Shown here piece by piece: positions 7,958-49,586 of a stretch of DNA of 49,586 nucleotides (position 1 is the first letter of the stretch; each line of letters opens with the position of its first letter). The translations under genes and the position numbers were made by a program. Source of the stretch: Candidatus Altiarchaeales archaeon (lineage in GTDB: Archaea > Altiarchaeota > Altiarchaeia > IMC4 > SCGC-AAA252-I15); contig WJJK01000045.1 of NCBI GenBank assembly GCA_014729705.1, positions 1 to 49,586 on the forward strand, read 5' to 3'. The notes beneath the pieces are model-generated. The model ran no database searches, was not told the DNA's origin, and saw only the letters and a program-made list of their open reading frames with translations.

Positions 7958-7986
7958 TTGACAAACTCTGATTTTTATCTTATGTT
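7958..7986 (+). promoter_or_regulatory. sigma70-like promoter candidate upstream of thyA
   Basis: TTGACA (7958-7963), a 17-nt spacer, then TATGTT (7981-7986), in a 144-nt gap. Confidence 0.5.
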
Positions 7987-8092: not shown

Positions 8093-8899
8093 ATGCGCCA
8101 ATATTTAGATTTACTTTCCTTTGTTCTTGAAAATGGTACTCAGAAGGAAGACCGCACGGGTACCGGAACAATCAGCCATTTTGGTTACCAGATGAGATTT
8201 GATTTGGGAGAAGGTTTCCCGCTGGTAACCACAAAGAAGATACATTTCAAAGCTGTTGTACATGAACTTCTATGGTTTTTGGCCGGAGATACAAACATCA
8301 AATACCTTCAAGACAACGGTGTCCGTATTTGGAACGAGTGGTCCACCGAAGACGGCCACGCCGGGCCAATTTATGGATGGCAGTGGCGCAACTTTGGTGC
8401 TGATTATAACGGACAAAGGTTGACTGGAGTAGACCAGATTGCTCAGGTAATCGAACAGATTCGAAATAACCCCGATTCTCGCAGGCACATTGTATCTGCT
8501 TGGAACCCTCAGCAAATAGATCAAATGTCTCTACCTCCCTGTCATACGCTATTCCAGTTCTACGTTGGTAGTGGTAAACTAAATTGTCAAATGTACCAAA
8601 GAAGCGCTGACGTTTTCCTTGGGGTCCCATTCAACATCGCTTCCTACGCCTTACTCACGCACATGGTGGCACAGGTTTGCGATTTAGATGTAGGTGATTT
8701 TGTTCACTCCTTTGGTGATGTTCACATTTATAACAATCATCTGGAACAAGTTAAGTTACAACTAACCCGAGAACCCAGACCTTTACCACGTATAAAACTT
8801 AATCCTGAAGTAAAAGATATAGACAAGTTTAAGTTCGAGGATGTAGAACTTGAAGGTTATGATCCTCATCCGCACATAAAAGGAAAGGTTTCCGTATGA
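8093..8899 (+). CDS. thyA: thymidylate synthase (ThyA type)
   Basis: MRQYLDLL...DRTGTGT...[11 protein letters not shown]...[21 protein letters not shown] are canonical ThyA blocks. At 268 aa the gene is uninterrupted. Confidence 0.97.
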
Positions 8900-11191: not shown

Positions 11192-11698
11192 GTGCCTAAA
11201 AAGAATAACAAACCTTCAAAAAGTGTGAACATCGACGCTATCAAAAGAGATGCTTCAAAGTTGGGCAAGCAGCTATCTAAAGAAAACCCTGCCTCTTTTG
11301 GAAAAGAACTTTCTCCGGGCTCTGTGCGTCGGGAGTCTCCTTTAGAACAGGAGATAGGAAGTACCAAATACCGGGAGATGATCCACCAGCATAATAAGAA
11401 AAACGAGCACATTTTGGATAGGCTCCCCTTTACTTTTCCCAAGAAGAAAGTGGTACGTTCCCACCTGAATGTGGTTGTAGAGTGTGTTGAATGTGGTCAC
11501 CAAGCTGTAGCTAATGAGAATACCGTAGGTATTACTTGCCCTGAGTGCAAGGACTACTGCCGGGTTATCAACCCCGAGCGAGAGAAGCGTTATGGGGACG
11601 AGAGCGACAAAGTGGGTATTTTTGGTACTGCTTCAGACCTTTTGGAGCTTCGAGAAAAAAGACGTGCATCAGAAGATAATGGGAAAAAAGAACAATAA
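11192..11698 (+). CDS. zinc-ribbon protein
   Basis: GTG start after AAGGAG. Contains CVECG...CPECKDYC. Confidence 0.5.
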   Translation: MPKKNNKPSKSVNIDAIKRDASKLGKQLSKENPASFGKELSPGSVRRESPLEQEIGSTKYREMIHQHNKKNEHILDRLPFTFPKKKVVRSHLNVVVECVECGHQAVANENTVGITCPECKDYCRVINPEREKRYGDESDKVGIFGTASDLLELREKRRASEDNGKKEQ

Positions 11699-11700
11699 AC

Positions 11701-11729
11701 TTGATAAATTTGTGATTTTCCTTTATTAT
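11701..11729 (+). promoter_or_regulatory. sigma70-like promoter candidate upstream of the NusG-like gene
   Basis: TTGATA (11701-11706), a 17-nt spacer, then TATTAT (11724-11729). Confidence 0.5.
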
Positions 11730-11754
11730 TGTCTTGGAAGTCGAGGTGGTACTC

Positions 11755-12288
11755 ATGGGCGAAAATAAAAGTTGGTATGCTTGGGTCATTAAAAGGAACC
11801 GTCTGGATAATGTGGTTAAGTTTATCCGAGAGCAGGTTCCGGAAATAGATAAGTACTTCTACCCTCTGATTAAAAAGGAGTATCAAACAAAGCGGGGGGT
11901 TCGTGTTAAAGACCGTCCCCTTTATGAGGGCTACATCTTCTTACGCTATAATGATCATGATGTAGTCTTTCACAAGCTAAGTGCTTACCCTTTCGTGACT
12001 ACCTACGCGGGGCCTGTTTCTGAAGATGAAATTGAAAGAATGCAGGCCTCCCAAGGTAAGCTTCTCACCGAAATCAAAACCAGTAAATTTTCCGCCGGTG
12101 ATCCCGTAAACCTCCTGGACGGACCCTTTAAGGGGTTTGAGGGGGTAGTCGTAGAGACTCAAGGGGATGCCGTCAAGGTGAGAATAGACGCTCAGATCCT
12201 TGGTAAGGGCGTGGAAATGGCTTTCAACGAGGATGTATTAGAGCGTAAAACTGAGCTGCAAAATACTGAAGTGCAGGATATTGGATAA
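11755..12288 (+). CDS. NusG/Spt5-like transcription elongation factor (NGN + KOW)
   Basis: ATG 11755 follows GAGGTGG; the track starts the ORF earlier, at 11734. The NGN-like part reads SWYAWVIK...RPLYEGYIFLRY...AYPFVTTYAG. The KOW part reads FSAGDPVNLLDGPFKGFEGVVVE...VKVRI. Confidence 0.8.
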   Translation: MGENKSWYAWVIKRNRLDNVVKFIREQVPEIDKYFYPLIKKEYQTKRGVRVKDRPLYEGYIFLRYNDHDVVFHKLSAYPFVTTYAGPVSEDEIERMQASQGKLLTEIKTSKFSAGDPVNLLDGPFKGFEGVVVETQGDAVKVRIDAQILGKGVEMAFNEDVLERKTELQNTEVQDIG

Positions 12289-12294
12289 ATCTAA

Positions 12295-12783
12295 ATGCAA
12301 CGAGGGAGAAAGCCTGGCTATAAACACTCTGACGAGACCAAGGATAAAATACGACAAGGACGTCAGGGCAAAGGTCAGGACGAGGAAACGCGTTCTAAAA
12401 TAAGTAAATCTATGCGGGGAAGATCCAAGAACCCCGAGCACCGAGAGGCTCTCTCGGACAGCTTGCGCGACCTTGAACGAAAATGTATGCGTCGTTTCCT
12501 GGAACTCAAAGCAGAGTACCCCGGACACGAAGATTTTTTTGAAGCACATAAATCTGAAATCCTCTTTGCTATGCGCTCCATAAAGTCTGAGAAGGAGCTT
12601 AGGGACATTCGAAAGTACTTTGAAACGGTTCCTATAGAATATGCTCCGGAGAATGTTACCAGTTATCAGTATGCCAGCAGTTCGTGCTACGCACAAGAAG
12701 ATGCCATGATTGCCTTATTGGATGCTGCGTCTTTCCTGCGGAAGTTTAGAAGTACCAATACTGAAAATCCCACAATCCACTGA
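12295..12783 (+). CDS. NUMOD3-repeat DNA-binding protein with no recognisable nuclease domain
   Basis: Three tandem G(x)K/HSxETKxKI-type motifs: GYKHSDETKDKIRQGRQGK, GQDEETRSKISKSMRGR, SKNPEHREALSDS. Confidence 0.45.
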   Translation: MQRGRKPGYKHSDETKDKIRQGRQGKGQDEETRSKISKSMRGRSKNPEHREALSDSLRDLERKCMRRFLELKAEYPGHEDFFEAHKSEILFAMRSIKSEKELRDIRKYFETVPIEYAPENVTSYQYASSSCYAQEDAMIALLDAASFLRKFRSTNTENPTIH

Positions 12784-12832
12784 AAATAAAAGAAAAAGTC
12801 CTTTTTTAACTAACTTACCTGTTCTTTAATGA

Positions 12833-12866
12833 GGGGTGAACTGTCTATGGTTGTTCCCCTTTATTT
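12833..12866 (+). terminator. terminator-like imperfect hairpin plus T-rich tail
   Basis: GGGG..AAC / GTT..CCCC arms (12833-12859) followed by TTTATTT. Confidence 0.35.
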
Positions 12867-12884
12867 GTATGTTCGGGTTTCTAA

Positions 12885-13553
12885 ATGAGCAAAAAAACGG
12901 AAATCAACGAAAAAGATTTAGACAATAAGGCGGAAAAGGACCCTAAGTCCAAGCGCTGGAATAATGCCAATAGTCGTAAGAACCTGAAGCAGTACCAAAA
13001 AGATAAGAAAGAAGAGCCTGTAGTTCCCGAGGTTGTCTCTGAAGATGAGGAGGACAACACGCAGGCGCAAGCACTGGTTGTAGGTCGCAAGATAAGTCCT
13101 GATTTAGTAAAGAAACTCATGCCGCAGCGGGGAGTACTTACTGCAGCAGAAAAGAAAAGATTTAATGGTATTGTTATCACGTATTTGGCAGATTTTAAAA
13201 ACGAAGAACCAACAGCCGCAGACGTTGATGACATTTTCGAAATAGCCAAAAGCGACATTATGGAGACGCGCCTTTTGCAGGCGTCAAAAAGCGACCCTCA
13301 AGCTTTGGTTAGTATTTCTCAAGCTATTGAAAAGCTTAATAAGAGAAAGCAGCAGGCTAAAGAAAACCTGTCCAGCCGTCGAGTGGATCGCAAAGGAACG
13401 CGAGCTTCTGCTGACGTGAACATCATCGACCTTGTAGTTCAGTTTGATAGTCTCCGCAAGAATGAACAGAGAGACAAAATCGATGCTCTCATGGCCGAAG
13501 AGGACGAGACGTCGCAGAAGCTGCGGAAAGTCCTGGAAGACGACGGGTACTAA
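12885..13553 (+). CDS. putative small terminase subunit (by position)
   Basis: 222-aa basic/charged protein directly upstream of TerL and TAATG-coupled to it. Confidence 0.4.
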   Translation: MSKKTEINEKDLDNKAEKDPKSKRWNNANSRKNLKQYQKDKKEEPVVPEVVSEDEEDNTQAQALVVGRKISPDLVKKLMPQRGVLTAAEKKRFNGIVITYLADFKNEEPTAADVDDIFEIAKSDIMETRLLQASKSDPQALVSISQAIEKLNKRKQQAKENLSSRRVDRKGTRASADVNIIDLVVQFDSLRKNEQRDKIDALMAEEDETSQKLRKVLEDDGY

Positions 13554-16500
13554 TGCTAAAACAAGACGATCCCGAGTTTCTTTCTGCATCCGCAGAACTA
13601 ATACAATTCTATAGACAATACCCTGAAATAGCCGCAGAAGAACTTTTTGGAACTCCGCAGAAACCTTTTCGGTTATCCAACATCCAGAAAGTAGTCTTGC
13701 GGTCTATGTGGTTTAAGAACTACGTCATGGCTGTTATGTGCCGCGGCGCCGGAAAATGCGTAGGCAAGGATTCTTACATATTCACAGACCGTGGGATCTA
13801 TCGAATAAAGGACTTGATGGCAAAGACATCTGTCCTACAAGATGCTGATTTTTCTATATCTGATGGACAATCTCTGGCACCTGCACAAAAGGTTTACTAT
13901 GATGGTATTCAAACGGTCAATATTTTGGAAACATCATTGGGCTATTCTATAAATGTAACCGATGATCATCCATTACTCGTTATGGGTAGTTCTGGCAAGT
14001 TGGAGTGGAAGAAAGGCTGCGATATTTCAGAGAATGATTATGTGTGTATTTCACGAGGCGACAATGTTTGGTCTAACAAAACTTCTACTGGGCAACTAGC
14101 ATATTACTTAGGACTTTTAGTTGGTGATGGGTGTTTAACTCGACGGAACATTATATCTTTTTCTAGTGAAGATGATGAACTATTGTCTGAATTCTGCAGA
14201 CTTACTAAAGAAATATTTGGCTATGATGCCAAGATTAGTGCCCCGAAAGGTAAATGTCGTGAAGTTAGAATTTATTCTGTAAATATATGTGCGCAACTCT
14301 TAGGGTTAGGTTTAGATTATAGTAAAGCATCTGAAAAAAAGTTCCCCTCTTATTTATTAGATAAGGATAGAGATTCTATAATATCTTTTCTTCAAGGATT
14401 ATTTGATACCGATGGTACAGCAGATAGCAGAAGATTGGCAGTTTCTTTTTGTACATCTAGTGCCGAGCTGGCTGAGATTGTTCATTTATGTTTATTGAAT
14501 TTAGGTATAGTTTCCAGAAAAAGATTTAAGAAGAATAGTAAATCTGGTGCTTACATTATTGATTTATCAGGTAAGGATGCTGTCTTATTCAAAGAGATTG
14601 TTGGTTTTAGATTGGAACGTAAACAGAATATTCTCAAAGATAAATGTACGGATGTAAAAATAAACACCAATAAAGATGTTATTCCCCACCAACACGCACG
14701 TTTTTCCAGATTGTTTGCATCAACCTACGGTTTAATACCCAGAGAAAATCGACAACGCCTACATAAATACTCATGCTATTATGATATTTCCTATGAATCT
14801 TTGGACAGAACTTTATCCGATATAAACAAGAATGACGAAGATTTTTCATATTTACAAAAACTTCTAAAGTTAAATTATCGTTTTGATAAAATTGTGAAGA
14901 AGAGTCTTGCTGCGGAGGAAGTTTATGATCTTTGCATGCCGGAAGAAAATCAGCACGCATTTGTTTGTAATGGTTTTATTAACCATAATACTTTCTTATT
15001 AGGAACATTGGCGTGTCTAAAGGCTATGCTTTATCCAGGACACCGTGTTGGCCTTATTGCACCTACTTTCCGTCAGTCCAAGTTGATTTTTGACGAGTGT
15101 AATCGTATTTTTCAAAGGTCTCCTATACTACAGGATGCCTGTGAGAGAAAACCCACACAGCAGTCAGATAACTGCTACATAAGATTTAAATCAGTAGCCG
15201 GACAGCCTGGTTCTCTGGTTCAAGCTATTCCGTTAGGTGATGGTACCAAGATACGAGGTTCTCGTTTCTTTACCATTGTCTGCGACGAGTTTCCGCACAT
15301 TCCTGAAGAAATCTTCAATATGGTTATTCGTCCTATGGCCGCTACTGTTAGCGATCCCATGGAGAACGTAGAGCGTTTAGAGCAGCAGCGTGTTCTACTC
15401 GAAAAGGGACTTATAACAGAAGAGCAGCTGGAAGAGGAAACAAATGCTAACCAGATAATCATTACCTCGTCCGGCTATTTTACGTTCAACCACATGTATA
15501 CTTTGTATTGCGTCTACCGAGATGAGATGCTAAAAGGAAATCTAAAGTATGCTGCTTTCAGGGTTCCCTATACATTACTTCCTCCGGGATTTCTGGATGA
15601 GGATAACGTGGAAGCTGCCAAGAGGGAAATGTCCAGCCTTGAGTTTCGCATGGAATACGAGGCAGCTTTTATTCCGGATACGGATGCTTTCTACAAAGCT
15701 TCTCTTTTGGAGGCTTGTAGTAAGACAAGTTTCTCAACCCAGGTTGTGGGGGAGCCAGGAAAATCTTATTGTTTAGGTATAGACCCTGCTAGAAGTGAGG
15801 ACTCTTTTGCCCTAGTCGTAGTAGAAATCGGGCAGCCTGCTAAGGTAGTTCACGCTCTAGAAATCCACAAACAACCCTTCCCTAAGATGGCACAAACCAT
15901 TGAAGATCTTTGTACTGCTTTTAATGTTCAGCATATCTACATGGACTCCCAAGGAGGAGGTCATGCCATTAAAGACATTTTAGCAGAAAATCCTACCGGC
16001 AATCAATCTGGTCCCATCTTAGACCCCGAGGACGAAGTCCACCAGAGAAAATCAGGACGGCACATTCTAACTATGTGCAATTTTTCTACTGATTTTATTT
16101 CCGAATCTAACTACGCCGCTCTTAGGTTGTTGGAACACCGAGAGCTTCTATTTCCTAATGTTCCTAAGGATACCGAGCCCACTCCTGCGCAGGAAAGATC
16201 TTGGCAGACCATTCAGGATATGAAAACTCAAATGCAGACTATTGAGTTGAGTGAAACCCCTACAGGCAAGCAGCATTTTGATGTGCCCAAGGGAGGAGGT
16301 CACGGAAAGCAGAAGAAGGACTTGTATACAGCATTTATGTTGGCTGCACGTTGCGTCTATGACCTTGTGTGGTCCGAAGGTCTGCCCGATGAGATTCTGC
16401 ATCACGGTGGAGTGATGCAGCCCCGTAACAGAAATAGAAATGACAAAGAAATGGAAGACGCCTTTGGAGGCGAGATTCCTCAAGCCCTAAGAGATAAGAT

Positions 16501-16624
16501 AGAAATAGCTCAGGATCCGGAAGGTTTTAAAAGGAAGATGATTCACCAAGCCTTCCATGGAAGAAAGGTAATAACAAGCAGCGCTGCCTGTTTGACGCCC
16601 AAGCCTAAAAAGAAGGGGAAATAA
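13553..16624 (+). CDS. terL: terminase large subunit precursor containing a 411-aa intein
   Basis: The Walker A motif is split: CRGAGK | intein | TFLLGTLAC. Removing residues 69-479 restores GAGKT. The remaining 612 aa fits TerL in size and position. Confidence 0.85.
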   Translation: MLKQDDPEFLSASAELIQFYRQYPEIAAEELFGTPQKPFRLSNIQKVVLRSMWFKNYVMAVMCRGAGKCVGKDSYIFTDRGIYRIKDLMAKTSVLQDADFSISDGQSLAPAQKVYYDGIQTVNILETSLGYSINVTDDHPLLVMGSSGKLEWKKGCDISENDYVCISRGDNVWSNKTSTGQLAYYLGLLVGDGCLTRRNIISFSSEDDELLSEFCRLTKEIFGYDAKISAPKGKCREVRIYSVNICAQLLGLGLDYSKASEKKFPSYLLDKDRDSIISFLQGLFDTDGTADSRRLAVSFCTSSAELAEIVHLCLLNLGIVSRKRFKKNSKSGAYIIDLSGKDAVLFKEIVGFRLERKQNILKDKCTDVKINTNKDVIPHQHARFSRLFASTYGLIPRENRQRLHKYSCYYDISYESLDRTLSDINKNDEDFSYLQKLLKLNYRFDKIVKKSLAAEEVYDLCMPEENQHAFVCNGFINHNTFLLGTLACLKAMLYPGHRVGLIAPTFRQSKLIFDECNRIFQRSPILQDACERKPTQQSDNCYIRFKSVAGQPGSLVQAIPLGDGTKIRGSRFFTIVCDEFPHIPEEIFNMVIRPMAATVSDPMENVERLEQQRVLLEKGLITEEQLEEETNANQIIITSSGYFTFNHMYTLYCVYRDEMLKGNLKYAAFRVPYTLLPPGFLDEDNVEAAKREMSSLEFRMEYEAAFIPDTDAFYKASLLEACSKTSFSTQVVGEPGKSYCLGIDPARSEDSFALVVVEIGQPAKVVHALEIHKQPFPKMAQTIEDLCTAFNVQHIYMDSQGGGHAIKDILAENPTGNQSGPILDPEDEVHQRKSGRHILTMCNFSTDFISESNYAALRLLEHRELLFPNVPKDTEPTPAQERSWQTIQDMKTQMQTIELSETPTGKQHFDVPKGGGHGKQKKDLYTAFMLAARCVYDLVWSEGLPDEILHHGGVMQPRNRNRNDKEMEDAFGGEIPQALRDKIEIAQDPEGFKRKMIHQAFHGRKVITSSAACLTPKPKKKGK
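13757..14989 (+). mobile_element. LAGLIDADG-type intein in the TerL P-loop
   Basis: Starts at Cys (CVGKDSYIF), has a TDDH block B, LAYYLGLLVGDGCL and FLQGLFDTDGTA dodecapeptides, ends ...NGFINHN and is followed by a +1 Thr. Confidence 0.9.
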
Positions 16625-18511
16625 ATGGCGGACGACCTCAAAAAGCAGATTAATGAGAAGTTAGAACATGCCAAAATTCTCTCCCACGAAGAGGCCCGTC
16701 CTGGAGTTCACGAAATGGAGGTCGAGGTCGGCCCCGGTGGGAGATCTTTTCAGGATCTTGCCTACTTAAGCGGTGAAGATGGAGATCCTTCTCCTGTGAA
16801 GTTCTGGGAAGGGGGCCGTAACATCTCCCGCGATTGGCTTCGTCGCGTCGATTTAGATTTGCTCATTGGTAAGCCTCAGGTAGTTCAGGCTCGCCCGGAG
16901 CAGCTCTATGACAATGCTCTTAACACCTATCATTCGCAAGGAATGGTTGGTACCATAATAGATACTCTTACAAACTTTGCTTCCAAGGGATTTAAAAACG
17001 ACATAGATGACGAGGAGATTAAGTTATTCTACGATACTTGGGTCAGAGAAATAGGTTTCCAAGAAGTAGTAGAAAAAATCTTTTTTGATTTCTTTAGGGT
17101 AGGTACGGTCACTACTTTTAAAATCGTAGGTAAGTTTGATCCGAAACTAAGACCTGAAGATTTTGATAGAACTGTAAAAAATGCTTCCGCAAAAGCTCAG
17201 TTTAAAACCAACGCAGAAATGCAGCAGTTGATGGCTTATAGAGATTGGGCAGCCGCAAAAAAGGTTTGGTCTAAATCTTATGTGCCCCTTCACTATACTA
17301 TTTTAGATCCTCGTTTGGTTACTCACGAAGGGCCGCTTCTCTTTGATCAGACGCAGACTTTTCTGAAGCCAGAAGCTTTCAAGGAAATGAGAGACATTCT
17401 GAAAAAACCTGCTAGCCAGCGCCCTAAGGAAAAGCAAGAGGTTATAAGGAAACTTCCTACTGAGTTTGTAGAACAGATAAAAAAGAATAAACCTGTAAGG
17501 CTTCCCCAGGAGTTGGTAGGTAGGTGTGATTATAGAAGGCAAGACTACGAGCGTTATGCTAAGCCAAAGATTGCTCGTCTTTTGGATGACATTCGCTACA
17601 AGGAAGAACTAAAGAAGGCTGATTTTTCCACTCTGGACGGAATCACAAACTATATCCTCAAGATTACTATTGGAAATGACGACCACCCAGTCACGGATCA
17701 ATCTCAGCTAGAGGCGGTTGCTAAACTTTTTGATACCTCAAGTAAAAGTTTCGACATTGTTTGGAACCACACACTCCAGGTAGAGAAGATCACCTTTCCT
17801 GAAATAGATACGATTTTAGGACAGAATAAGTTTGCCCAGGTAAATGACGATTTGAGTCAAGCTTTCGGTGTAACCCGAGCACTTCTTGATGGACAGGTAA
17901 GCGGTAATGCTAAAGCCATAGAAGCAGCCACTAAAGCTTTTGCCGAAGAAATAAACTATGCTCGACGCTGCATAAAGCGGTGGATAGATCGTGAATACGA
18001 GGAAATAGCTCTGGCTATGGGCTTCACTCGTTATCCTAAAGTACGCTTCGACGAGAATACTCTCAAGGATGAGATCATGCTTATGAGTGTTGTTCAGGGT
18101 ATGATAGACAGGCGCATTATCTCCTACGAGACCGGTATCGAGAAGTTAGGCTTTGACTTTGGTAATGAGCTGTCGAACATGATGCAGGAGCATCCTATGG
18201 TTCAGGCAGGTGTTCTTGGTGTTATCGGTTCTCCTTATAATCCTAAGGCTCTTCCTCCGGAAAATCCTCCGGCCGAAAAGGACACCACCAAGGATGGTAA
18301 GGAAACTACTCTTACACAAGATGATTTGGAAGAGTTCAGAAAGAACATGGAGCAACAACTACAAGGTCTTAAAGATAACATACAGGAAGTTCAAAGAACT
18401 CCCAAGGGAACTCCAAGCGAGGGCCGGCCTCGAAAGGGCCGGGGAAAGCCTCGTCAGAAATCCACAAAACCCAACACTAGGCCACGCAAGCCAAATAAAC
18501 AATCTACGTAA
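16625..18511 (+). CDS. portal protein (by position and size)
   Basis: 628 aa with a TAAATG junction after TerL and a basic C-terminal tail. No motif verified. Confidence 0.6.
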   Translation: MADDLKKQINEKLEHAKILSHEEARPGVHEMEVEVGPGGRSFQDLAYLSGEDGDPSPVKFWEGGRNISRDWLRRVDLDLLIGKPQVVQARPEQLYDNALNTYHSQGMVGTIIDTLTNFASKGFKNDIDDEEIKLFYDTWVREIGFQEVVEKIFFDFFRVGTVTTFKIVGKFDPKLRPEDFDRTVKNASAKAQFKTNAEMQQLMAYRDWAAAKKVWSKSYVPLHYTILDPRLVTHEGPLLFDQTQTFLKPEAFKEMRDILKKPASQRPKEKQEVIRKLPTEFVEQIKKNKPVRLPQELVGRCDYRRQDYERYAKPKIARLLDDIRYKEELKKADFSTLDGITNYILKITIGNDDHPVTDQSQLEAVAKLFDTSSKSFDIVWNHTLQVEKITFPEIDTILGQNKFAQVNDDLSQAFGVTRALLDGQVSGNAKAIEAATKAFAEEINYARRCIKRWIDREYEEIALAMGFTRYPKVRFDENTLKDEIMLMSVVQGMIDRRIISYETGIEKLGFDFGNELSNMMQEHPMVQAGVLGVIGSPYNPKALPPENPPAEKDTTKDGKETTLTQDDLEEFRKNMEQQLQGLKDNIQEVQRTPKGTPSEGRPRKGRGKPRQKSTKPNTRPRKPNKQST

Positions 18512-27233: not shown

Positions 27234-27247
27234 TCGTTGTTCTATTT

Positions 27248-27281
27248 CCCAGAGGGAGGGGCAACGCCCCTCCCTCTTGGG
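27248..27281 (+). terminator. 15-bp GC-rich hairpin after the capsid gene (no U-tract)
   Basis: CCCAGAGGGAGGGGC aac GCCCCTCCCTC(T)TGGG. Confidence 0.55.
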
Positions 27282-27318
27282 AGCCAGGATTGTAGATTCT
27301 ATAACGGGGGAAAGATAG

Positions 27319-32853: not shown

Positions 32854-32893
32854 CTGTTCTCGGTTGCAGTTATTGAGAACAGTTGTTATTATT
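32854..32893 (+). terminator. intrinsic terminator
   Basis: CTGTTCTC (32854-32861) pairs with GAGAACAG (32875-32882), followed by TTGTTATTATT. Confidence 0.6.
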
Positions 32894-38364: not shown

Positions 38365-38368
38365 CAAG

Positions 38369-38384
38369 GGGTGCTGCCGCACCC
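38369..38384 (+). terminator. short GC hairpin after gene 37522..38364
   Basis: GGGTGC tgcc GCACCC, with no U-tract. Confidence 0.3.
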
Positions 38385-38489
38385 AGGCACGGTACAGGAC
38401 TTTCCTCCAAAGTTGCCTCACTTTGGTAGGCACCGCACATTTCCCCCAATGTTGCGAAAATCAAAACTCGTAAAGGAGGAAGACCTGAA

Positions 38490-40367: not shown

Positions 40368-40380
40368 AGGTCGATTTTCT

Positions 40381-40432
40381 GCTGTCCCGGGTCCCGCCCG
40401 GGGCAGCAACAAGTTCCTCCGTCTTTCGGAGG
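40381..40432 (+). terminator. two tandem GC-rich hairpins
   Basis: GCTGTCCCGGG tcccg CCCGGGGCAGC (11 bp including one G-U pair), then CCTCCG tcttt CGGAGG. Confidence 0.5.
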
Positions 40433-40469
40433 GGTAAGGAATGAGTTTAAGGGAAAGGAGATTATTCTC

Positions 40470-42804: not shown

Positions 42805-45800
42805 TTGGTAGAAGAGAGCTTCAAGCTTAATCTAAATATAGAACTTGATGAAAGTGGCCTTGCGGGACTTCAAAAGCAGATAGAAAGAAGTGTAAATAAA
42901 GCTTTCTCTGATGCTTTTAGAAAGGTCAAGTTGCCTACGCCCGGCGCTACAGGAGGTGGCGCTGGTCCTACTCCGGCAACTGCACGAAGTGCCCGTGAGG
43001 CTATTTCTGTATCTGGGCAAGATCTTGGAAAGAGTGTCCAGCAAGCTTTGAGAGGCGAGCTACGCGGATTCGAAGCTGCTGCTAAACGTATGGAACAGGC
43101 GGTAGACAGATTGGCGCGCGTCATGGGAGGAGGACGCGGAGGCGGAGCTGCTTCTGGAGGCCCTTCCAGAAGACAACAACAGGTTGAGGAAGTTTTTAGG
43201 GCCCGCGTTGGTCGTATATCCGAGATGCGAGGGAGGCAAAGAACTGCCCGAGAAGCTGGAACTCCTGCCGGAGAACGAGAAGCCGAGCGCCTTGAGGTGG
43301 AGATAGCCAGAGAAAAGAAAAAGGCTTTTAGAACAGCACAGAGACGCCAGCGCCTCCAGGAACAGTCTGCTAAGGCGGCCGAAAGAACTGCCAAGTCTGA
43401 GGAAGACCTAGCCCGCTCCACAGAGAAGCTGGCGGCTGCACGTCGGAGAGAGGCTGCTGCTACCGAAAGCAGAGGGCGTCAAGGTGCCGGTCCTTCCGGC
43501 CCTGCCCCTACACGTGGAAGAGAACAGGTAGCTTCCCGGCAAGTAGGTGCTTCCAATCAACAGACAGGTGCTAATATAGATGTCACCCGACGTTCGGGTT
43601 CTCAAAGGACCGCCGGATCCACTGGAGAAATTGTAACCGATGCCCCTCGTATTCGCGATAACAGAGTAGGTACTGTACAGGATAGGCCTCAGTTTAGAAA
43701 GGAAGCACAAGAAAGAGAGAGGGCCAGGGCCGGAGCCGGTGCGGAATATATAAAGAGTGCTCAGGCTACCTCCGAACGGGTTGCTGCAAGCATAGGAAAG
43801 CTTGAAGCGGCTATTAGAACTATGCCTCAGTTTAGGGATGTTGATCTTTCCAAGGCTCTTGGGCTGCCAGGCAAGGAGTCCCTTGGTGTTGGTAGAGGAG
43901 CAGCTGCCACCGTTAAGCTTCCTTCTGGAGAAGAGAGGGTTATACGCCAGGCAGTTAATATTCTATCAGATGAGATGGGCAAAGTTTCTGTTGAGGCTGG
44001 GGACGTAATCTCCAAGCGTATTGACAAATTGCTTTCCAGTGAAGCTATGAGTAAGATAGGTAAGACAGCCCGTTTCCGACCTGAGCGCGCCGAAAATATG
44101 CTCAGGGCGGAAATAGGCAAGATATTTGAAGCTCCTAAGCTTGAATCTACTAAGGTAATGGGCGGTTTTGCTACAGCCGGACAGTCCCATATGACTTTCA
44201 AGCCTACAGAAGAACAGCGCAAAAGAATAGCATCCAAGGCCCCTGGGGCAGAGCAGATAGCAGAGGCTATGGTAGTTCTGCAGGAAATGTCCAGGGAATC
44301 CGAATCCTTCAAAAAGGCAGGGCTTGAGGTTGTACATGTTTTGGGTATGGCGGAGCAGGACGCTGCTGCAATGGCAGATTCTATCGAAGCTTTTGCTAAG
44401 GGAGCTTCTGATAGTATAGAGGGAATTGTTCAGACAAGAAATCTGGCGGCTATGGGTGTTGGTGGTGCCGGAACTATGAGACAAGCACGTTCCTTCCTTG
44501 TTACCCAAACACAAGAGATGGTAGGGGGAGAGGAACCCAAGATTAAGGGAATAGGAGAAGAAGCAGCATACGCTGGTGATATTTTTGGAAAGAGAGCGGT
44601 AAAGCATCTCAAAACTGCTGTTGTTTCTGCGGACCTTATGCCCGAGCTTAAGGAAGATCAGTTCCTACTGGACAAAAAAGCAGCAGAACAGATGGGTATG
44701 ATAGAGAAAAAGAGTAAGCTTGTTAAAGATGTTGGTGAGGACATAGTTCCTGGTATGAAGTTGCAACATAAGCAGGTACTGGGGGCTGATGTAAAGGGTA
44801 GAGCTGTAGAGTTTGACCTTAAAGGGGCTGAGGCCGAGGTTAAGAGAGTAGAAAAAGTCATAAAGAATGGTGTTGAGGCTTGGAAGATTCATTATGAAGA
44901 GCTCAACCAGATGGTTACGGGTGGTAAGATGACCACCCGCGCCGGCGGTAAGGGTATAGTACGAGTTGAGGAGGATATTGCCGGTAAATACGGTCTTCCT
45001 AAGGGAACTCAAGTGGCTATGTCGGCTGAAGGTATGGCCAAGAGAGGCGATTTAAGGAGCATGATTGAGATGCATGCTTCTAACATTTCTGAGGCTACTA
45101 CTAAGTCAGGACAAGAAGTGGCTGACATGATAGTAGATAGAATGAAGCACGGTTCTGATTATATGGGAGAAACCATTGATCAGGCCATAAAGAACGTCGC
45201 GTCTGAGTTAGGTATTAAGGGCTATACTGGTGCAGAGGTTATGCGGGAAGGTCCTCTGGCTAAGGGCAAGGGAGGCGAAGCGGCAGTTATGACCGGTGAG
45301 CTGGCTTGGATGCGCCTGGCAAAGGAGGGACAGAGAGGTCCGGCCCCTGTGGACCCTCGTTTCTTGGATAAGCCCGCCCAACAGGCCATGGAGCAGCGCG
45401 CCGAAACTGTTGCCCAGTCCAAAGCCATGCAGAGTGAGATGTCAAAGGTTATAGAAAGTAACTACGAGTACGTAGCTACCTTGCAGTCTATTGCTGGCGC
45501 TACGGACGAGGTCACAGAAGGTTTGAAGGAAGTCAAGCCGGAGAGATTCAAAGGACTCACTGGCGGAATGATGGATCCTTCTACACTTAAGGGAACCCTC
45601 TTAGATCCTGATCTTGCCGAGCCCCTAAAGGTTATGTTGCCCAAGAGGGGTGGCGGTGAGGAGGCTATGCGCTTGCCCTCTATGGGAAGGGGTCTGGGTA
45701 AGCGTGATTATTTTGAGACTGAACTAGGTCAGGTGGGTGCCAGTGACATAACTAAACTTTATGATAAAATAATCCAGCAAGCCAAACAAATAAGAGTGGC

Positions 45801-48800
45801 TACTGGACAAGTAGACATTACCGAGGATGCTGAGGCTTATGGAGAGGCAGCTCAAATAACTTCCAGGGCCATGAAGGACCAGATACAAACGATCTATAAG
45901 TTGGGTTCTAAAACTGAAGAAGGTAAGGCGGCGATGAAAGAGTTCATCGATTCCTTTATGCCTTTAATAAAGCAGCTTGAAGGACCTGCAGGTATTGAGT
46001 ATCAGAAGGTAAAGAAGACAGGAGAAAGGGAAACAGTTGCTTATCAAGGTACCGCAGAAGAGTACGTACAGAGCCGTAAAACTCTTGAACAAAAGATGTT
46101 CGGTATTCAGGACTTGCTGTCTGAAAGATCGGCCCGCCGGGCCAAAGTAAGTCCTCAGAGCGCTTGGGGTAGGCAGGGTTATGTCGCAACCGAAAACGTA
46201 CCTCGCGCAGGTGCTATGTTTGATCCTAAAAATGCAGAAGTACTTAGAAAGTCTATGGATCTTTTGGGAGTATCCTTAGAGGAGGATGCGGAGCATGTTG
46301 ACAAGCTTCATGACAGGTTAGAGAGGCTTAAGTCAATACTTGTAGAGACTCTGTCCATGGCAGGTGTAGGAACCGCGGGCGGACGCCCTGCTTCCGAGTC
46401 TTTGCGCCCCTACGCTCAGGCCATGGGGGGCGGTATAGCTGAGGCACCTATGGGGGTCGCTACAGAGTTTAGAACAGATATATCTGCTTCTCTTGCGAAG
46501 GCTAAAGAAAGATTAGAGCAGCTGGCTGATTCTGGTAAGAACGTAGATCAGGCCCTTGCGGCGGTGGAGAGGATTTCTGCCCTCCAGACTGATGTGGAAG
46601 GTTTGCCTCGCGACGCTGTTATGTTGAGTGAGACAGATTATGAAAATCTCAAGCAGTCTATTATGAAGCGGCAGCGAATAGGCGAAGCTGAAGCCACCAA
46701 GAGAATGGAAAGAGGTGTTTCTCTGCGCTACCCAGTGACTGGTGGTCAGAGTATGCAGGCAGTTAAGATTCTAAAAGATACAATGGGTAAGCTACCGGAA
46801 GGTAAGATTGGCGTTGCAGGACCTCCTGCCGGAGAACCTGAGGACATTGAAAAGGTCACAGGTCAACTTAGTGAGTTTAGAGCTTCCCTTGCCAAGGTTA
46901 TAGAGGATAATAAGGGTTTCGGTGCTGAAGCGGATCAAGCACGCTCTGAAATAGCCGAACTGGATCCAGTTATAGAGGGACTTCGACAGTCTTTCCTTAG
47001 CGCTACTCAGAATCTTGATTTCGACGGAGACAAGATTGCTGTATTTGGAGCGCTGACAGAGGAGGCATCGAAGTCTCTTCGTACGTTCACTGAAGTTGCT
47101 ATGAGAGGAGGAATGTCCTTTGAAAACATAATGAGTACTATTTTGACTGCTTCCAAGGGCAAGCCTGGCGGAGGAATGGGAGGTGTCGAAGAATACGCTC
47201 AGTTGTTCGGCCAGGTTGCTAAGGGCAGGACTGGTAAGTACCGTCAAGCAGTTATGGCTCCTGACACTACAGAGACTACGCGTTTTGAGTCCACAGCCCA
47301 CACAGCCGGAAAGTTGTCCGTTAGTTTGCTCACTGATGCCTTCAATAAGCTTCAGATGTCTATTCTAGGGGGAGCTGAGCAGACCGGAGACGCGATGTCT
47401 ACTGCGGTAGAGCGTATAATGTTGTTTATTAACAAATCCCTGGCACAAAAGCACGGCGGTGGGGGAGCCGGCGGGGCTGACCCTATGGAATTTATAGAGT
47501 CCTTCCGTAGAGGACCTGAAGGTCTTAAGGAAATCTTTTCCGGTATGGATGAGATGGGAGATGATATCTACGGAGAGCTCGGTAAGTTCAACAAAGAATA
47601 TCGTGAGCGTATGTACAACATGCTCATCGCTCAACCAAGAGATACTGTTCAAGAGTTAGCTAAGCAAGCTGGGGTTTTGGAGAGCGAAGCGGACCTAACT
47701 CCGGAAACTTTTATACCTGTTATAAAGGACATGGTTAATGAGCTGGACCTAAAGGGACAGTTTAAGCGTATGTGGGAAATGCTTGAAGACAACATGAAGC
47801 AATCTCTTATGAAGGAGGGTATGTCTGCGGAAGAAGTATCTGCCAAGATGAGGGATATGCTTACAAAGCCTACCAAACAGACTGGTAAACCGGCAGGACT
47901 GGATCTAAATAGACTGATGAAGAACATGTTCCCGGAGTACAGGGCTACCCGAAAGGTAGGGGTAAGGGAGATGGAGGGAGAATCTCCTATGGGTAAAGCC
48001 CAACAAGTACTTAAGATGTTGGGGCTTCATGTGGCCGAGAGAATAGAAGAGACAGAGGAATACTTTGATGAAGACGTAATACAAGGGGCAGCAGTACAAC
48101 TTATATCTAAGATTCATTCTTTCTTAGAGTCTGTTTCTGATCAGTTTGAGATATCTACCACTGCTGAGTTTGCCCAGAGACTCGGAAGAACTCCCGAACA
48201 AGCTGCTGGAGTAAGAGGTCAGTACATTAGAGGAAAGGGCGATGAGCCTGGTAAGATAATGCTTTCCGAGGAGAAAATTTTCAAGCCCCTTATAGAGGCC
48301 ATTGCTACCTTGGATAGGGTCGCTAAGGGAGAGATACCTCCAACAGTTGAAGCTTTCCAAAGCCTTGGTGAGGCTTTGTCTAGGTTTGCTTCTACCATGT
48401 CCCACGAAGGTATCCATAAGGCCGCAGACCAGTTCCCTGAAGTTATACAAAATCTGGTCCGACGTATAACTTCCTCAAGTGGTGATCTAAGCCAGCACTC
48501 GGGAGCTATTTATGAAGCCTTAAGTAAGCTTTCCAATGTGGCTAAACTTAGAGGTAAGTTTGAGCAGGTTTCCAAGGCCCAGAAGGGAGGTGCTACTGAG
48601 TTTGCAGGGATGCCTATAAAGGAGGCCAAGCAGGAGATAGGTCGTCGTTTGGCCAGAGTTTCTACAGAGGAGTTAGTCGCTCACCTGGCCGATCGCCAGA
48701 AGTGGCAAAAGGTATTTGGTCACCTTCCAGAAACTGTACAGCAAGCAGCCAGGGATGCATTTGAAGAACTCTCCCAGTCTGCACCTGACATTGTAAAGCC

Positions 48801-49586
48801 TGTTCAGAATTGGTCAAATGAAATTCTATCTTCTCTTGTTGAAATAATGACTTCTACTTTCCAAGGACAAGGTGTGGGGGCTGCCAGAGAGGCTGCCCAG
48901 CAGAGAAGAGATGCCTTGGAGTCGGGGGAGCCTTACCCCGGTAGAGAAAGATTCCATCAAATGCGCGAAGTTTTGGGTAAGGGAGAAGAAACCCTGGCAT
49001 ATGGTAGAAGAACCCATGGACTTGCTCCTTTTCAGAAAGCAGAAGGAAGAGTTGGTATAGGTGGTCGCCTCGAAATAGGAGGGGAGCAGGTAGTAGGTCA
49101 GATAGGTGCCCAGGTACGCAATCTTTTGGAGAGCGCTCTTAGAGGAGGAGCATTTGATGATCCTGGTGCTGCAGCTGAGTTGGAGAAAGATTTTAAAGCC
49201 GCTGCCCGTCAGTACTATGAGGCTTTGAAGGGCCTTGGTAGGGATCAGTTTAGCGGAAACGCTTGGAAGGAATACAACAAGGTTCTTCTCGAGTTCCAGG
49301 CAGCTGAGGCGCAGTCTCTTATAAACAAAGCGCGCCAGATGGAAGAGCAGATTTCAGAAATGAGAAAGGCAGGTCAGACTGACATGCCTGAGTTCCGCGA
49401 TCTGCTGGATAGATTTAATGAAACGGTTCAAGAACTTTTCCGTTCCTACGAGAAGAACATTAAGTTAGGAGGCAAAGGAAGAGGTACTGCCTCCGGACTG
49501 GCCGTTACCCCGGACCAGCTAATCTCTGAACCGGCATTGGAGATGGGTGTTAAGCCTACGGGCGCACAATATCAGCAAGTAATGCA
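42805..49586 (+). CDS. giant virion-module protein (>2,260 aa, 3'-open) containing RpoB-like and RpoC-like double-psi beta-barrel motifs: candidate single-chain RNA polymerase
   Basis: Hand translation of frame 1 is open from TTG 42805 to the window end, with GGAGG at 42791-42795 and an in-frame TAG at 42802-42804. GGKMTTRAGGKGIV lies at 44920-44961, RYPVTGGQSMQAV at 46726-46764 and NLDFDGDKIAVF at 47011-47046. The ORF is absent from the supplied track. Confidence 0.8.
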   Translation, partial: MVEESFKLNLNIELDESGLAGLQKQIERSVNKAFSDAFRKVKLPTPGATGGGAGPTPATARSAREAISVSGQDLGKSVQQALRGELRGFEAAAKRMEQAVDRLARVMGGGRGGGAASGGPSRRQQQVEEVFRARVGRISEMRGRQRTAREAGTPAGEREAERLEVEIAREKKKAFRTAQRRQRLQEQSAKAAERTAKSEEDLARSTEKLAAARRREAAATESRGRQGAGPSGPAPTRGREQVASRQVGASNQQTGANIDVTRRSGSQRTAGSTGEIVTDAPRIRDNRVGTVQDRPQFRKEAQERERARAGAGAEYIKSAQATSERVAASIGKLEAAIRTMPQFRDVDLSKALGLPGKESLGVGRGAAATVKLPSGEERVIRQAVNILSDEMGKVSVEAGDVISKRIDKLLSSEAMSKIGKTARFRPERAENMLRAEIGKIFEAPKLESTKVMGGFATAGQSHMTFKPTEEQRKRIASKAPGAEQIAEAMVVLQEMSRESESFKKAGLEVVHVLGMAEQDAAAMADSIEAFAKGASDSIEGIVQTRNLAAMGVGGAGTMRQARSFLVTQTQEMVGGEEPKIKGIGEEAAYAGDIFGKRAVKHLKTAVVSADLMPELKEDQFLLDKKAAEQMGMIEKKSKLVKDVGEDIVPGMKLQHKQVLGADVKGRAVEFDLKGAEAEVKRVEKVIKNGVEAWKIHYEELNQMVTGGKMTTRAGGKGIVRVEEDIAGKYGLPKGTQVAMSAEGMAKRGDLRSMIEMHASNISEATTKSGQEVADMIVDRMKHGSDYMGETIDQAIKNVASELGIKGYTGAEVMREGPLAKGKGGEAAVMTGELAWMRLAKEGQRGPAPVDPRFLDKPAQQAMEQRAETVAQSKAMQSEMSKVIESNYEYVATLQSIAGATDEVTEGLKEVKPERFKGLTGGMMDPSTLKGTLLDPDLAEPLKVMLPKRGGGEEAMRLPSMGRGLGKRDYFETELGQVGASDITKLYDKIIQQAKQIRVATGQVDITEDAEAYGEAAQITSRAMKDQIQTIYKLGSKTEEGKAAMKEFIDSFMPLIKQLEGPAGIEYQKVKKTGERETVAYQGTAEEYVQSRKTLEQKMFGIQDLLSERSARRAKVSPQSAWGRQGYVATENVPRAGAMFDPKNAEVLRKSMDLLGVSLEEDAEHVDKLHDRLERLKSILVETLSMAGVGTAGGRPASESLRPYAQAMGGGIAEAPMGVATEFRTDISASLAKAKERLEQLADSGKNVDQALAAVERISALQTDVEGLPRDAVMLSETDYENLKQSIMKRQRIGEAEATKRMERGVSLRYPVTGGQSMQAVKILKDTMGKLPEGKIGVAGPPAGEPEDIEKVTGQLSEFRASLAKVIEDNKGFGAEADQARSEIAELDPVIEGLRQSFLSATQNLDFDGDKIAVFGALTEEASKSLRTFTEVAMRGGMSFENIMSTILTASKGKPGGGMGGVEEYAQLFGQVAKGRTGKYRQAVMAPDTTETTRFESTAHTAGKLSVSLLTDAFNKLQMSILGGAEQTGDAMSTAVERIMLFINKSLAQKHGGGGAGGADPMEFIESFRRGPEGLKEIFSGMDEMGDDIYGELGKFNKEYRERMYNMLIAQPRDTVQELAKQAGVLESEADLTPETFIPVIKDMVNELDLKGQFKRMWEMLEDNMKQSLMKEGMSAEEVSAKMRDMLTKPTKQTGKPAGLDLNRLMKNMFPEYRATRKVGVREMEGESPMGKAQQVLKMLGLHVAERIEETEEYFDEDVIQGAAVQLISKIHSFLESVSDQFEISTTAEFAQRLGRTPEQAAGVRGQYIRGKGDEPGKIMLSEEKIFKPLIEAIATLDRVAKGEIPPTVEAFQSLGEALSRFASTMSHEGIHKAADQFPEVIQNLVRRITSSSGDLSQHSGAIYEALSKLSNVAKLRGKFEQVSKAQKGGATEFAGMPIKEAKQEIGRRLARVSTEELVAHLADRQKWQKVFGHLPETVQQAARDAFEELSQSAPDIVKPVQNWSNEILSSLVEIMTSTFQGQGVGAAREAAQQRRDALESGEPYPGRERFHQMREVLGKGEETLAYGRRTHGLAPFQKAEGRVGIGGRLEIGGEQVVGQIGAQVRNLLESALRGGAFDDPGAAAELEKDFKAAARQYYEALKGLGRDQFSGNAWKEYNKVLLEFQAAEAQSLINKARQMEEQISEMRKAGQTDMPEFRDLLDRFNETVQELFRSYEKNIKLGGKGRGTASGLAVTPDQLISEPALEMGVKPTGAQYQQVM

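What the first reader, a model, noticed from the sequence alone, without database searches (positions are those of the whole stretch)
11701..12288. Phage-encoded NusG/Spt5-like factor with its own promoter
The protein has an NGN-like N-terminal domain and a clear KOW motif (GDPVNLLDGPFKGFEGVVVE..VKVRI). It is preceded by TTGATA-17-TATTAT and a GAGGTGG SD. NusG-family factors clamp onto the beta-prime clamp helices of two-barrel RNAPs. A phage that also encodes a two-barrel RNAP-like protein may therefore carry a dedicated polymerase-plus-processivity-factor pair. Alternatively the factor may reprogramme host RNAP past the many hairpins seen in the late region.
Basis: partly seen in the sequence, partly recalled or inferred. 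Interest (0 to 1): 0.6.

Follow-up and report, generated by a model that had tools for sequence, protein, structure and literature searches.

The report
Phage NusG-like factor heading late genes
A roughly 300-kb uncultured bacteriophage carries its own copy of the universal transcription elongation factor NusG, placed behind a conserved promoter and just upstream of a conserved terminator-like hairpin that guards the virion genes, so it most likely lets RNA polymerase read through into the late genes.

Summary
ORF 11755-12288 (177 aa) is a NusG-family protein. The NGN domain passes Pfam's cut-off. The AF2 model shows an NGN fold plus a beta-barrel KOW, and every top Foldseek hit is NusG, RfaH or Spt5. 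The TTGATA-17-TATTAT promoter and the GAGGTGG Shine-Dalgarno site are real, and the promoter is kept in 36 of 38 related loci.

The window is one piece of a ~300-kb jumbo phage that was mis-binned into an archaeal MAG. Besides the giant tail-fused polymerase, the phage encodes a second, 1,056-aa single-chain two-barrel RNAP with a clamp-helix-like hairpin, and a sigma70-family factor. Sister phage lineages keep that RNAP and sigma but have no NusG-like gene, so the factor is a lineage-specific add-on.

Downstream lie a NUMOD3 protein gene, a unique conserved box (TTTAAyTAAC) and a conserved hairpin with a T-tract, only ~18 nt before the first packaging gene. The late genes must therefore be transcribed through this hairpin.

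Best reading: a specialised, RfaH/LoaP/UpxY-like antitermination or processivity factor for the late operon. It probably acts on host RNAP, and possibly on the phage's own RNAP. It is a new variant of a known kind, and no biochemistry was tested.

The parts
11701..11729 (+). Sigma70-type promoter P_nusG: TTGATA, 17-nt spacer, TATTAT (family consensus CTTGCwwA..TTATwATT)
   Evidence: 10 of 12 matches, best in the region. Conserved in 36 of 38 loci. Unique matrix hit of 28.3 bits in the window. The same class occurs 12 and 7 times on the coding strand of complete relatives against 1 in the control.
11743..11749 (+). Shine-Dalgarno GAGGTGG, 5 nt before the ATG
   Evidence: Purine-rich GGAG-type motifs sit at the same place in relatives.
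11755..12288 (+). NusG-family gene, 177 aa. NGN is about residues 5-96 (11767-12042), KOW about residues 111-165, and a conserved disordered tail ELQNxEVQDI covers residues 167-177.
   Evidence: More than 170 metagenomic relatives at 53-89% identity, all in the same synteny.
12295..12783 (+). Co-transcribed 162-aa protein with NUMOD3 DNA-binding repeats and a conserved C-terminal domain, with no nuclease domain detected
   Evidence: Pfam NUMOD3 at 29.2 bits. Homologous in 13 of 14 aligned relatives; L041 has a DUF559 endonuclease there instead.
12803..12819 (+). Conserved non-coding box TTTAAyTAAC(yTACC), made of TAAC-like repeats, single copy in the window
   Evidence: Pattern TTAAYTAACYT occurs once in the window. 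Its role is inferred: a recruitment site or a late promoter.
12828..12866 (+). Terminator-like element: A-rich flank, GGGG..CCCC hairpin (core 12833-12859), then TTTATTT
   Evidence: MFE -14.1 kcal/mol. All 19 distinct relatives fold into a -9 to -17.5 kcal/mol hairpin with differing inner-stem sequences, and most are followed by a T-run. Only ~18 nt remain before the next start codon.
12885..18511 (+). First late genes that must be read through the hairpin: 222-aa protein (small-terminase position), TerL with intein (13553-16624), portal (16625-18511)
   Evidence: Gene order is conserved in all loci.

Best explanation
The gene encodes a specialised phage paralogue of NusG, a NusG_SP in the sense of RfaH, LoaP and UpxY.

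Proposed sequence of events:
1. The gene is transcribed from its own conserved -35/-10 promoter, together with a NUMOD3 DNA-binding protein.
2. Early transcripts from this promoter stop at the conserved hairpin and T-tract at 12828-12866.
3. Once the factor accumulates, its NGN domain binds the clamp helices of the transcribing RNAP.
4. It may be recruited at the adjacent TTTAAyTAAC box and hairpin.
5. The elongation complex becomes resistant to pausing and termination. It then reads through this hairpin and the later intergenic hairpins into the packaging and virion operon of at least 37 kb.
6. The beta-barrel KOW keeps an I-L-G-K loop in place of NusG's I-F-G-R, so it may tie the complex to the lead ribosome via S10.

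The polymerase is most likely host core RNAP, because the promoters are of the sigma70 type and the signal is an intrinsic-terminator type.

Shown here: family membership, fold, the conserved promoter, the conserved box and hairpin, and synteny. Inferred: binding partner, read-through, timing and recruitment.
For: - Fold and family.
- The best curated subfamily matches run full-length to the specialised paralogues: UpxY 50 bits, LoaP 41, RfaH 36. Housekeeping NusG matches only residues 45-157.
- Aromatic and hydrophobic residues align with RfaH's clamp-helix pocket: F51/Y54/F56/F81 correspond to Y57/Y60/F62/Y84. An invariant K13-R14-N15-R16 aligns with RfaH K10-R11-G12-Q13. The residue roles come from established RfaH literature, so this is an inference.
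- The gene always sits at the head of the (TerS)-TerL-portal block, even in distant relatives.
- The promoter is conserved.
- The box and hairpin with T-tract are conserved, and there is no room for a promoter downstream of them.
- Further strong hairpins occur in late intergenic gaps.
- Other phage NusG-like genes (PHROG 6386, a 41-kb Sinorhizobium phage) occur in phages too small to be expected to encode an RNAP (their gene content was not checked here).
- Three sister genomes with a full-length homologue of the phage RNAP, plus G018 with only a partial match, lack any NGN gene.
Against: - No binding or read-through was tested.
- The generic terminator scan did not call this hairpin. Its T-tract is interrupted, and in 4-5 relatives it is weak.
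- The shuffle z-score of the window's hairpin is only -1.9.
- The box could instead be a late promoter for a phage polymerase, with the hairpin serving as a 5' stabiliser.
- More distant relatives have the gene abutting its neighbours, with neither a gap nor this element.
- The phage's own sigma and RNAP offer an alternative partner.
- The host is unknown.
Confidence: 0.5

Rival explanations
1. The factor is the elongation subunit of a complete phage-encoded bacterial-type transcription set. The 1,056-aa single-chain beta-beta' RNAP initiates with the phage sigma70-family factor at the CTTGC..TATAAT promoters. It then swaps sigma for the phage NusG-like factor on its clamp-helix-like hairpin.
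For: - The window's phage encodes that RNAP and a sigma with regions 2 and 4, on contigs C110 and C40 of the same bin.
- The AF2 model of the RNAP (pLDDT 89.6) has a helical hairpin, H669-685 and H691-709, exactly where beta' clamp helices lie before the DFDGD barrel. Foldseek confirms a cellular-type RNAP.
- RNAP and sigma co-occur about 13-15 kb apart in several lineages.
- A divergent polymerase would explain why the phage needs its own NusG.
Against: - Four near-complete sister genomes with a match to this RNAP (three full-length, one partial) have no NGN gene at E<=1. The RNAP therefore works without such a factor.
- Conservation of the hairpin tip is no higher than the protein average.
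- Phage sigma factors usually redirect host core (review PMC7598289).
Confidence: 0.25
2. One reading: the factor pairs with the giant tail-fused virion RNAP (ORF 42805-49584+).
For: - The giant ORF carries NLDFDGDKIAVF.
- Relatives give weak Rpb1 domain 2 hits of 13-14 bits.
- Earlier notes read it as a tape-measure-fused virion RNAP.
Against: - A virion polymerase acts on injected DNA before any phage protein is made, whereas this factor is expressed from a -35/-10 promoter at the head of the virion gene block.
- There is no co-variation or adjacency (30 kb apart).
- No test of a clamp-helix site in the giant ORF was done here.
Confidence: 0.04
3. The factor is a general NusG competitor with no specific site. 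It occupies host RNAP, displaces host NusG, and so blocks Rho-dependent silencing of phage DNA or enforces transcription-translation coupling genome-wide.
For: - The NGN pocket residues are retained.
- The KOW is predicted as a barrel rather than an autoinhibitory helix pair, so there is no sign of RfaH-type gating.
- Sigma70-like promoters are spread over the whole genome of relatives.
- No E. coli-type ops element occurs above chance.
Against: - The strictly conserved position at the head of the late block, and the unique conserved box and hairpin right after it, are not explained.
- Invariant basic NGN residues suggest nucleic-acid contact.
Confidence: 0.12
4. It is an archaeal-virus Spt5 mimic, because the contig sits in an archaeal MAG.
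For: The bin's RNAP is archaeal, with split A'/A'' subunits. The bin also has its own Spt5, on C256.
Against: - The phage encodes a sigma70-family factor and uses -35/-10 promoters and strong SD sites.
- The NGN matches the bacterial Pfam model.
- ThyA's nearest relatives are bacterial.
- No spacer-like matches to the window were found in the bin.
- Several phage contigs are co-binned, which fits mis-binning by coverage or composition.
Confidence: 0.02

Closest known systems
UpxY family (Bacteroides capsule-operon antiterminators, NusG_SP)
   Same: - It is the best curated subfamily match (NF033644, 50 bits, residues 7-146).
- It has the NGN plus KOW architecture.
- It is encoded as the first gene of the long operon it is proposed to keep elongating.
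   Different: - The score is half the family cut-off of 100.
- It is phage-borne.
- Strong SD usage argues against a Bacteroidota host.
- It has an extra conserved C-terminal tail.
- The target leader element is unrelated.
RfaH (E. coli; ops-dependent NusG paralogue)
   Same: - Size and domain order.
- The aromatic clamp-helix pocket residues and a K-R-x-x basic motif align.
- The proposed role is suppressing termination across a long, horizontally mobile operon.
   Different: - TIGR01955 scores 36 against a cut-off of 144.5.
- The KOW is modelled as a beta-barrel, not an alpha-hairpin.
- No ops consensus occurs above chance.
LoaP (Bacillus/Clostridia NusG_SP that binds a leader RNA hairpin and reads through intrinsic terminators)
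   Same: - A conserved hairpin with a conserved loop (GTCTA) in the leader of the controlled genes.
- A terminator-like signal to be bypassed.
- The factor gene lies adjacent to its target.
   Different: - NF033641 scores 41 against a cut-off of 125.
- RNA binding is untested.
- Here the hairpin itself looks like the terminator.
Lambda N/nut and Q/qut late-gene antitermination
   Same: - Circuit logic: the antiterminator gene lies upstream of a terminator that gates late genes.
- A linear box, a spacer and a hairpin resemble boxA-boxB.
- The box shares TTTAAC..AA with rrn boxA (from memory, not tested).
   Different: - The proteins are unrelated (N and Q are not NusG-like).
- The boxA resemblance rests on about 8 nt only.
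Thermus phage P23-45 (virion tape-measure-fused RNAP plus gp39 antiterminator acting on host RNAP)
   Same: The phage has an injected polymerase for early genes and a small phage factor that makes host RNAP resistant to termination for later genes (PMC3351154 abstract; earlier notes).
   Different: - gp39 is not a NusG homologue.
- This phage additionally has a second RNAP and a sigma factor.

Membership tests
NusG/Spt5 superfamily | N-terminal NGN domain | tested here: met
   PF02357 at 27.7 bits, above the 22.2 cut-off, residues 5-96; 28.9 bits on the DNA. The model shows an alpha/beta NGN.
NusG/Spt5 superfamily | C-terminal KOW beta-barrel | tested here: met
   PF00467 at 20.9 bits, just under the 22.3 cut-off for this copy, but on record for most relatives. 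The model shows a five-strand barrel. Full-length Foldseek alignments go to NusG chains.
NusG/Spt5 superfamily | Binds the clamp helices of a two-barrel RNAP | not testable with these tools
   Only alignment of pocket residues with RfaH and NusG is available. No complex prediction was possible.
Housekeeping bacterial NusG (TIGR00922) | Score above the equivalog cut-off | tested here: not met
   46 bits against 135.7, covering residues 45-157 only.
RfaH (TIGR01955) | Equivalog score | tested here: not met
   36 bits against a cut-off of 144.5.
RfaH (TIGR01955) | Alpha-helical autoinhibited KOW | tested here: inconclusive
   The KOW is modelled as a beta-barrel, but a single AF2 model cannot exclude fold switching.
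RfaH (TIGR01955) | ops element in the target leader | tested here: not met
   GGCGGTAGNNTG gives 28 matches at up to 2 mismatches against 28 expected by chance, with none in the leader.
UpxY (NF033644) | Subfamily score cut-off | tested here: not met
   50.1 bits against 100. It is nonetheless the best-scoring named subfamily.
LoaP (NF033641) | Model cut-off | tested here: not met
   41.3 bits against 125.
LoaP (NF033641) | Specific binding to a leader RNA hairpin | not testable with these tools
   A conserved leader hairpin exists, but binding is untested.
PHROG 6386 'transcription antiterminator' | Profile match over the full length | tested here: met
   E 4e-16, 60 bits, residues 2-163 against profile positions 10-177 of 179. 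The family name is an annotation, not a tested function.

The most novel reading that the evidence does not exclude
This jumbo-phage lineage carries a self-contained bacterial-type transcription apparatus. It would consist of a single-chain beta-beta' RNAP, a sigma70-family initiation factor and a NusG-family elongation factor with its own nut- or ops-like loading site. That would make this the first NusG homologue known to serve a virus-encoded polymerase.
Probability: 0.22. Interest if true: 0.85.

Novelty: new variant of a known kind. Interest (0 to 1): 0.6.

Why it matters
NusG/Spt5 is the only transcription factor conserved in all cellular life. Its specialised paralogues (RfaH, LoaP, UpxY) are the known way to protect long, horizontally acquired operons from termination. 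In the paper library searched here, no functionally studied phage-encoded NusG paralogue turned up.

This family offers several things:
- It is large (more than 170 clusters) and well conserved.
- It has a clear candidate control region of promoter, box and hairpin that can be tested directly in a reporter assay.
- It sits in a phage that also encodes two polymerases and a sigma factor. Working out which enzyme the factor serves would show how such phages divide labour between host and viral transcription.
- If it serves the viral enzyme, NusG-type regulation would extend to minimal two-barrel polymerases.

Tried and rejected
- Generic terminator and promoter scans of the late region were not significantly above shuffles and did not call the key hairpin. 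The 'many hairpins' claim was checked by reading the intergenic gaps instead.
- RNAalifold on the MAFFT alignment recovered only the GGGG/CCCC base, because the inner stems differ in length and sequence. Each copy was therefore folded on its own.
- An E. coli ops search gave chance level.
- An Rfam scan of 11400-13100 gave nothing credible.
- The TTAAYTAACYT box is not a repeated promoter class in the window; it occurs once.
- An archaeal host was rejected (see rivals).
- A prophage origin is unlikely, because there were no relatives in 185,579 reference genomes.
- Moraphages (PMC12619734) were checked as a possible identity for the lineage and rejected. They lack RNAP genes and are T4-like.
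- Comparing conservation of the clamp-helix-like tip between the NusG-bearing and NusG-less RNAP lineages was inconclusive.
- A host hint from ThyA: 64-71% identity, mostly to Bacteroidota. This conflicts with the phage's strong SD usage and canonical -35/-10 promoters, so the host is left open.

Full report
**1. The observation**

The + strand ORF runs from ATG 11755 to the stop at 12288 and gives 177 aa. The ORF lister's TTG at 11734 is only 5 nt past the -10 hexamer, so it lies at or before the likely transcript start. All aligned relatives begin at the ATG position.

- Pfam finds the NusG NGN domain above its cut-off: 27.7 against 22.2 bits, residues 5-96.
- Pfam finds KOW just below its cut-off: 20.9 against 22.3 bits, residues 121-145.
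- PHROG 6386 'transcription antiterminator' matches over the full length at E 4e-16.
- A sequence search of the PDB returns only NusG (about 1e-6), RfaH (about 1e-4) and, more weakly, Spt5 and KOW-containing ribosomal proteins.
- An AF2 model built on 28 family members (pLDDT 72) has an alpha/beta NGN and a five-strand KOW barrel, with residues 167-177 disordered.
- Its 50 best Foldseek PDB matches are all NusG, RfaH or Spt5, with E down to 5e-11.

The promoter is the best sigma70-like match in 9-14 kb.

**2. More than chance**

The protein has more than 170 metagenomic cluster representatives at 53-89% identity. All lie in the same gene order: ThyA, DHFR, an ORF, dNMP kinase, a 283-aa Ig-like protein, a 168-aa zinc-ribbon protein, the NusG-like gene, a ~150-aa protein, a ~225-aa protein, TerL, portal.

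In 36 of 38 loci the short gap before the gene contains CTTGC(w)(w)A, 17 bp of spacing and TTAT(w)ATT. An SD follows, and the start codon lies mostly 20-33 nt after the -10 (up to 39 nt; L030's 60 nt reflects an offset start call). The sequence around this element is not conserved. A position matrix from those loci scores the window's site at 28.3 bits and finds no other site above 12 bits in 49.6 kb.

A looser pattern of this promoter class occurs 12 and 7 times on the coding strand of two complete relatives, against 1 in the reversed control. In the window it occurs in two further intergenic gaps (2448, 32864), and a related site lies before ThyA at 7958.

**3. What the window belongs to**

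The window is a whole contig (C373) of a 2.3-Mb, 405-contig MAG. That MAG is archaeal. Its RNAP large subunit is split into A' and A'' with NADFDGDEMNLH, and it has its own Spt5 on C256.

The bin also holds other pieces of the same phage:
- C75 overlaps the window's first 141 nt.
- C110, C40 and C22 form a chain.

Complete relatives are 295,848 bp (with terminal repeats) and 297,725 bp. No relative exists in 185,579 reference prokaryote genomes.

The phage encodes a sigma70-family protein with regions 2 and 4. It uses -35/-10 promoters and strong SD sites throughout, and its ThyA is bacterial. The host is therefore a bacterium, and the archaeal bin is a binning artefact.

**4. Polymerases in the phage**

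The giant ORF at the window's end contains NLDFDGDKIAVF. Earlier notes of this scan read it as a tape-measure-fused virion RNAP. I did not re-test that beyond the motif and weak Rpb1 hits in relatives.

New here: the complete relatives and the window's own phage (C110/C40, 74% identity) encode a second polymerase. It is 1,056 aa (1,118-aa open frame) and carries an Rpb2-type and an Rpb1-type barrel in one chain.

- Its AF2 model is confident (pLDDT 89.6, pTM 0.84).
- The model shows a helical hairpin, residues 669-685 and 691-709, immediately before the DFDGD barrel. This is the position of the beta' clamp helices.
- Foldseek matches bacterial RpoB and eukaryotic or archaeal Rpb2 chains.

The sigma gene lies 13-15 kb from this RNAP gene in several lineages.

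**5. Is the factor tied to that polymerase?**

Homologues of the 1,056-aa RNAP at 36-41% identity occur in sister jumbo-phage lineages. Four near-complete genomes with a match to it (87, 86, 100 and 95% complete; the last, G018, has only a 26% partial match) have no match to the family profile or to Pfam NGN at E<=1. The two complete genomes of the window's lineage each have exactly one. Most sister records do have the sigma.

The RNAP and sigma pair is therefore old, and the NusG-like gene is a lineage-specific addition.

More distant NusG-like relatives (profile E about 1e-27) sit in other phages in the same slot, just before a ~250-aa gene, TerL and portal. There they have no flanking gaps.

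**6. The element downstream**

After the NusG-like gene comes a conserved ~150-aa protein with NUMOD3 DNA-binding repeats and no nuclease domain. A 70-130-nt gap follows. In the window, 12784-12884 holds three parts:
- a box, TTTTAACTAACTTACC (12803-12819), unique in the window;
- a 10-nt spacer, followed by the A-rich TTTAAT flank;
- AAUGAGGGGUGAAC..GUUCCCCUUUAUU, a hairpin of -14.1 kcal/mol followed by TTTATTT.

Nineteen distinct relatives have the same layout. All fold into hairpins of -9 to -17.5 kcal/mol. The GGGG/CCCC base is kept, while the inner stems differ (GAAC/GTTC, GTAG/CTAC, CTGCA/TGCAG, AAGTTT/AAACTT). The loop often reads GTCTA, and most copies are followed by a T-run.

In the window only ~18 nt, with the SD, separate the element from the start codon of the first packaging gene (about 11-25 nt in most relatives). 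Any polymerase expressing TerL, portal and the virion genes must therefore pass this hairpin. It would come either from P_nusG or from a start inside the box. In three relatives a DUF559 endonuclease gene, or its remnant, is inserted at the hairpin.

**7. Mechanism proposed**

The arrangement is: promoter, antiterminator-family gene, terminator-like hairpin, long late operon. This is the logic of lambda N and Q. The protein family is that of RfaH, LoaP and UpxY, which act in just this way on long operons.

Curated models support a specialised paralogue. UpxY (50 bits), LoaP (41) and RfaH (36) align over the full length, and housekeeping NusG (46) aligns only from residue 45. None reaches its cut-off.

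Aligned with E. coli RfaH and NusG taken from the MG1655 record:
- The pocket aromatics are kept: Y57, Y60, F62 and Y84 correspond to RfaH F51, Y54, F56 and F81.
- The family-invariant K13-R14-N15-R16 lies on RfaH's K10-R11-G12-Q13.
- The KOW loop reads I-L-G-K where NusG has I-F-G-R.

The functional roles of those RfaH and NusG residues come from the published literature, not from tests here. The family also has an 11-residue conserved, disordered tail (ELQNxEVQDI) that neither NusG nor RfaH has.

I therefore commit to this reading: a late-operon antitermination or processivity factor, confidence 0.5. Host RNAP is the likelier client and the phage's sigma-dependent RNAP is the main rival at 0.25.

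**8. Limits**

The hairpin's T-tract is imperfect, and its shuffle z-score is modest at -1.9. The box may instead be a late promoter. The host is unidentified.

**9. Verdict**

This is a new variant of a known kind. It is an uncharacterised, widespread phage NusG paralogue with a directly testable control region, in a phage with an unusually complete transcription toolkit.

Noticed in passing
whole genome G000 (contigs C373, C75, C40, C110, C22): The MAG is archaeal (split RpoA'/A'', own Spt5 on C256). It also contains at least five contigs of a ~300-kb bacterial jumbo phage. The window's first 141 nt overlap the end of C75.
   Followed up: partly
G000 C110 + C40; L058:3437-6790 (G001): A 1,056-aa single-chain RNAP carries both an Rpb2-type and an Rpb1-type barrel (NLDFDGD) and a clamp-helix-like hairpin. 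A sigma70-family gene with regions 2 and 4 lies 13-15 kb away. The pair is conserved across several jumbo-phage lineages.
   Followed up: partly
G000 C107:34541-35281 (L089:14541-15278): A second, different NGN/KOW-like protein (246-265 aa, lysine-rich N-terminus, LFEGYVFI motif) lies between a clamp-loader gene and a 5'-3' exonuclease. The contig is 41.8 kb at 42% GC and carries bacterial-type replication genes and an intein-bearing RNR. It is probably another large phage in the bin.
   Followed up: partly
window 12295-12783: A conserved 162-aa protein has three NUMOD3 DNA-binding repeats and an unknown C-terminal domain, with no nuclease domain. It is always co-located with the NusG-like gene and is a candidate binder of the adjacent box.
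   Followed up: partly
L041:11085-11582; L005 and L006 at the equivalent site: A DUF559 (Vsr-like) endonuclease gene or its remnant is inserted exactly at the conserved GAGGGG hairpin. This suggests a homing element that targets this conserved non-coding site.
   Followed up: partly
window 11192-11698: A conserved 168-aa protein with a CxxC..CxxC zinc ribbon and basic N- and C-terminal tails always lies immediately upstream of P_nusG. It has no significant family match, and an Spt4-like role was not supported by any hit.
   Followed up: no
window 27240-27290; 32854-32892; 38365-38440; 40375-40440: Strong GC-rich intergenic hairpins occur in the late region. One example is CCCAGAGGGAGGGGC-AAC-GCCCCTCCCTCTTGGG after the 355-aa gene. 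Most lack T-tracts. At 32864 a TTGCAG-17-TATTAT promoter-like site overlaps a hairpin.
   Followed up: no
window 7958-7986: CTTGACA-17-TATGTT, of the same promoter class as P_nusG, lies in the gap before the ThyA-DHFR-dNMP kinase block.
   Followed up: no
window 8093-8899: The closest cellular relatives of ThyA (64-71% identity) are mostly Bacteroidota with a few Bacillota. This conflicts with the phage's strong Shine-Dalgarno usage as a host hint.
   Followed up: no
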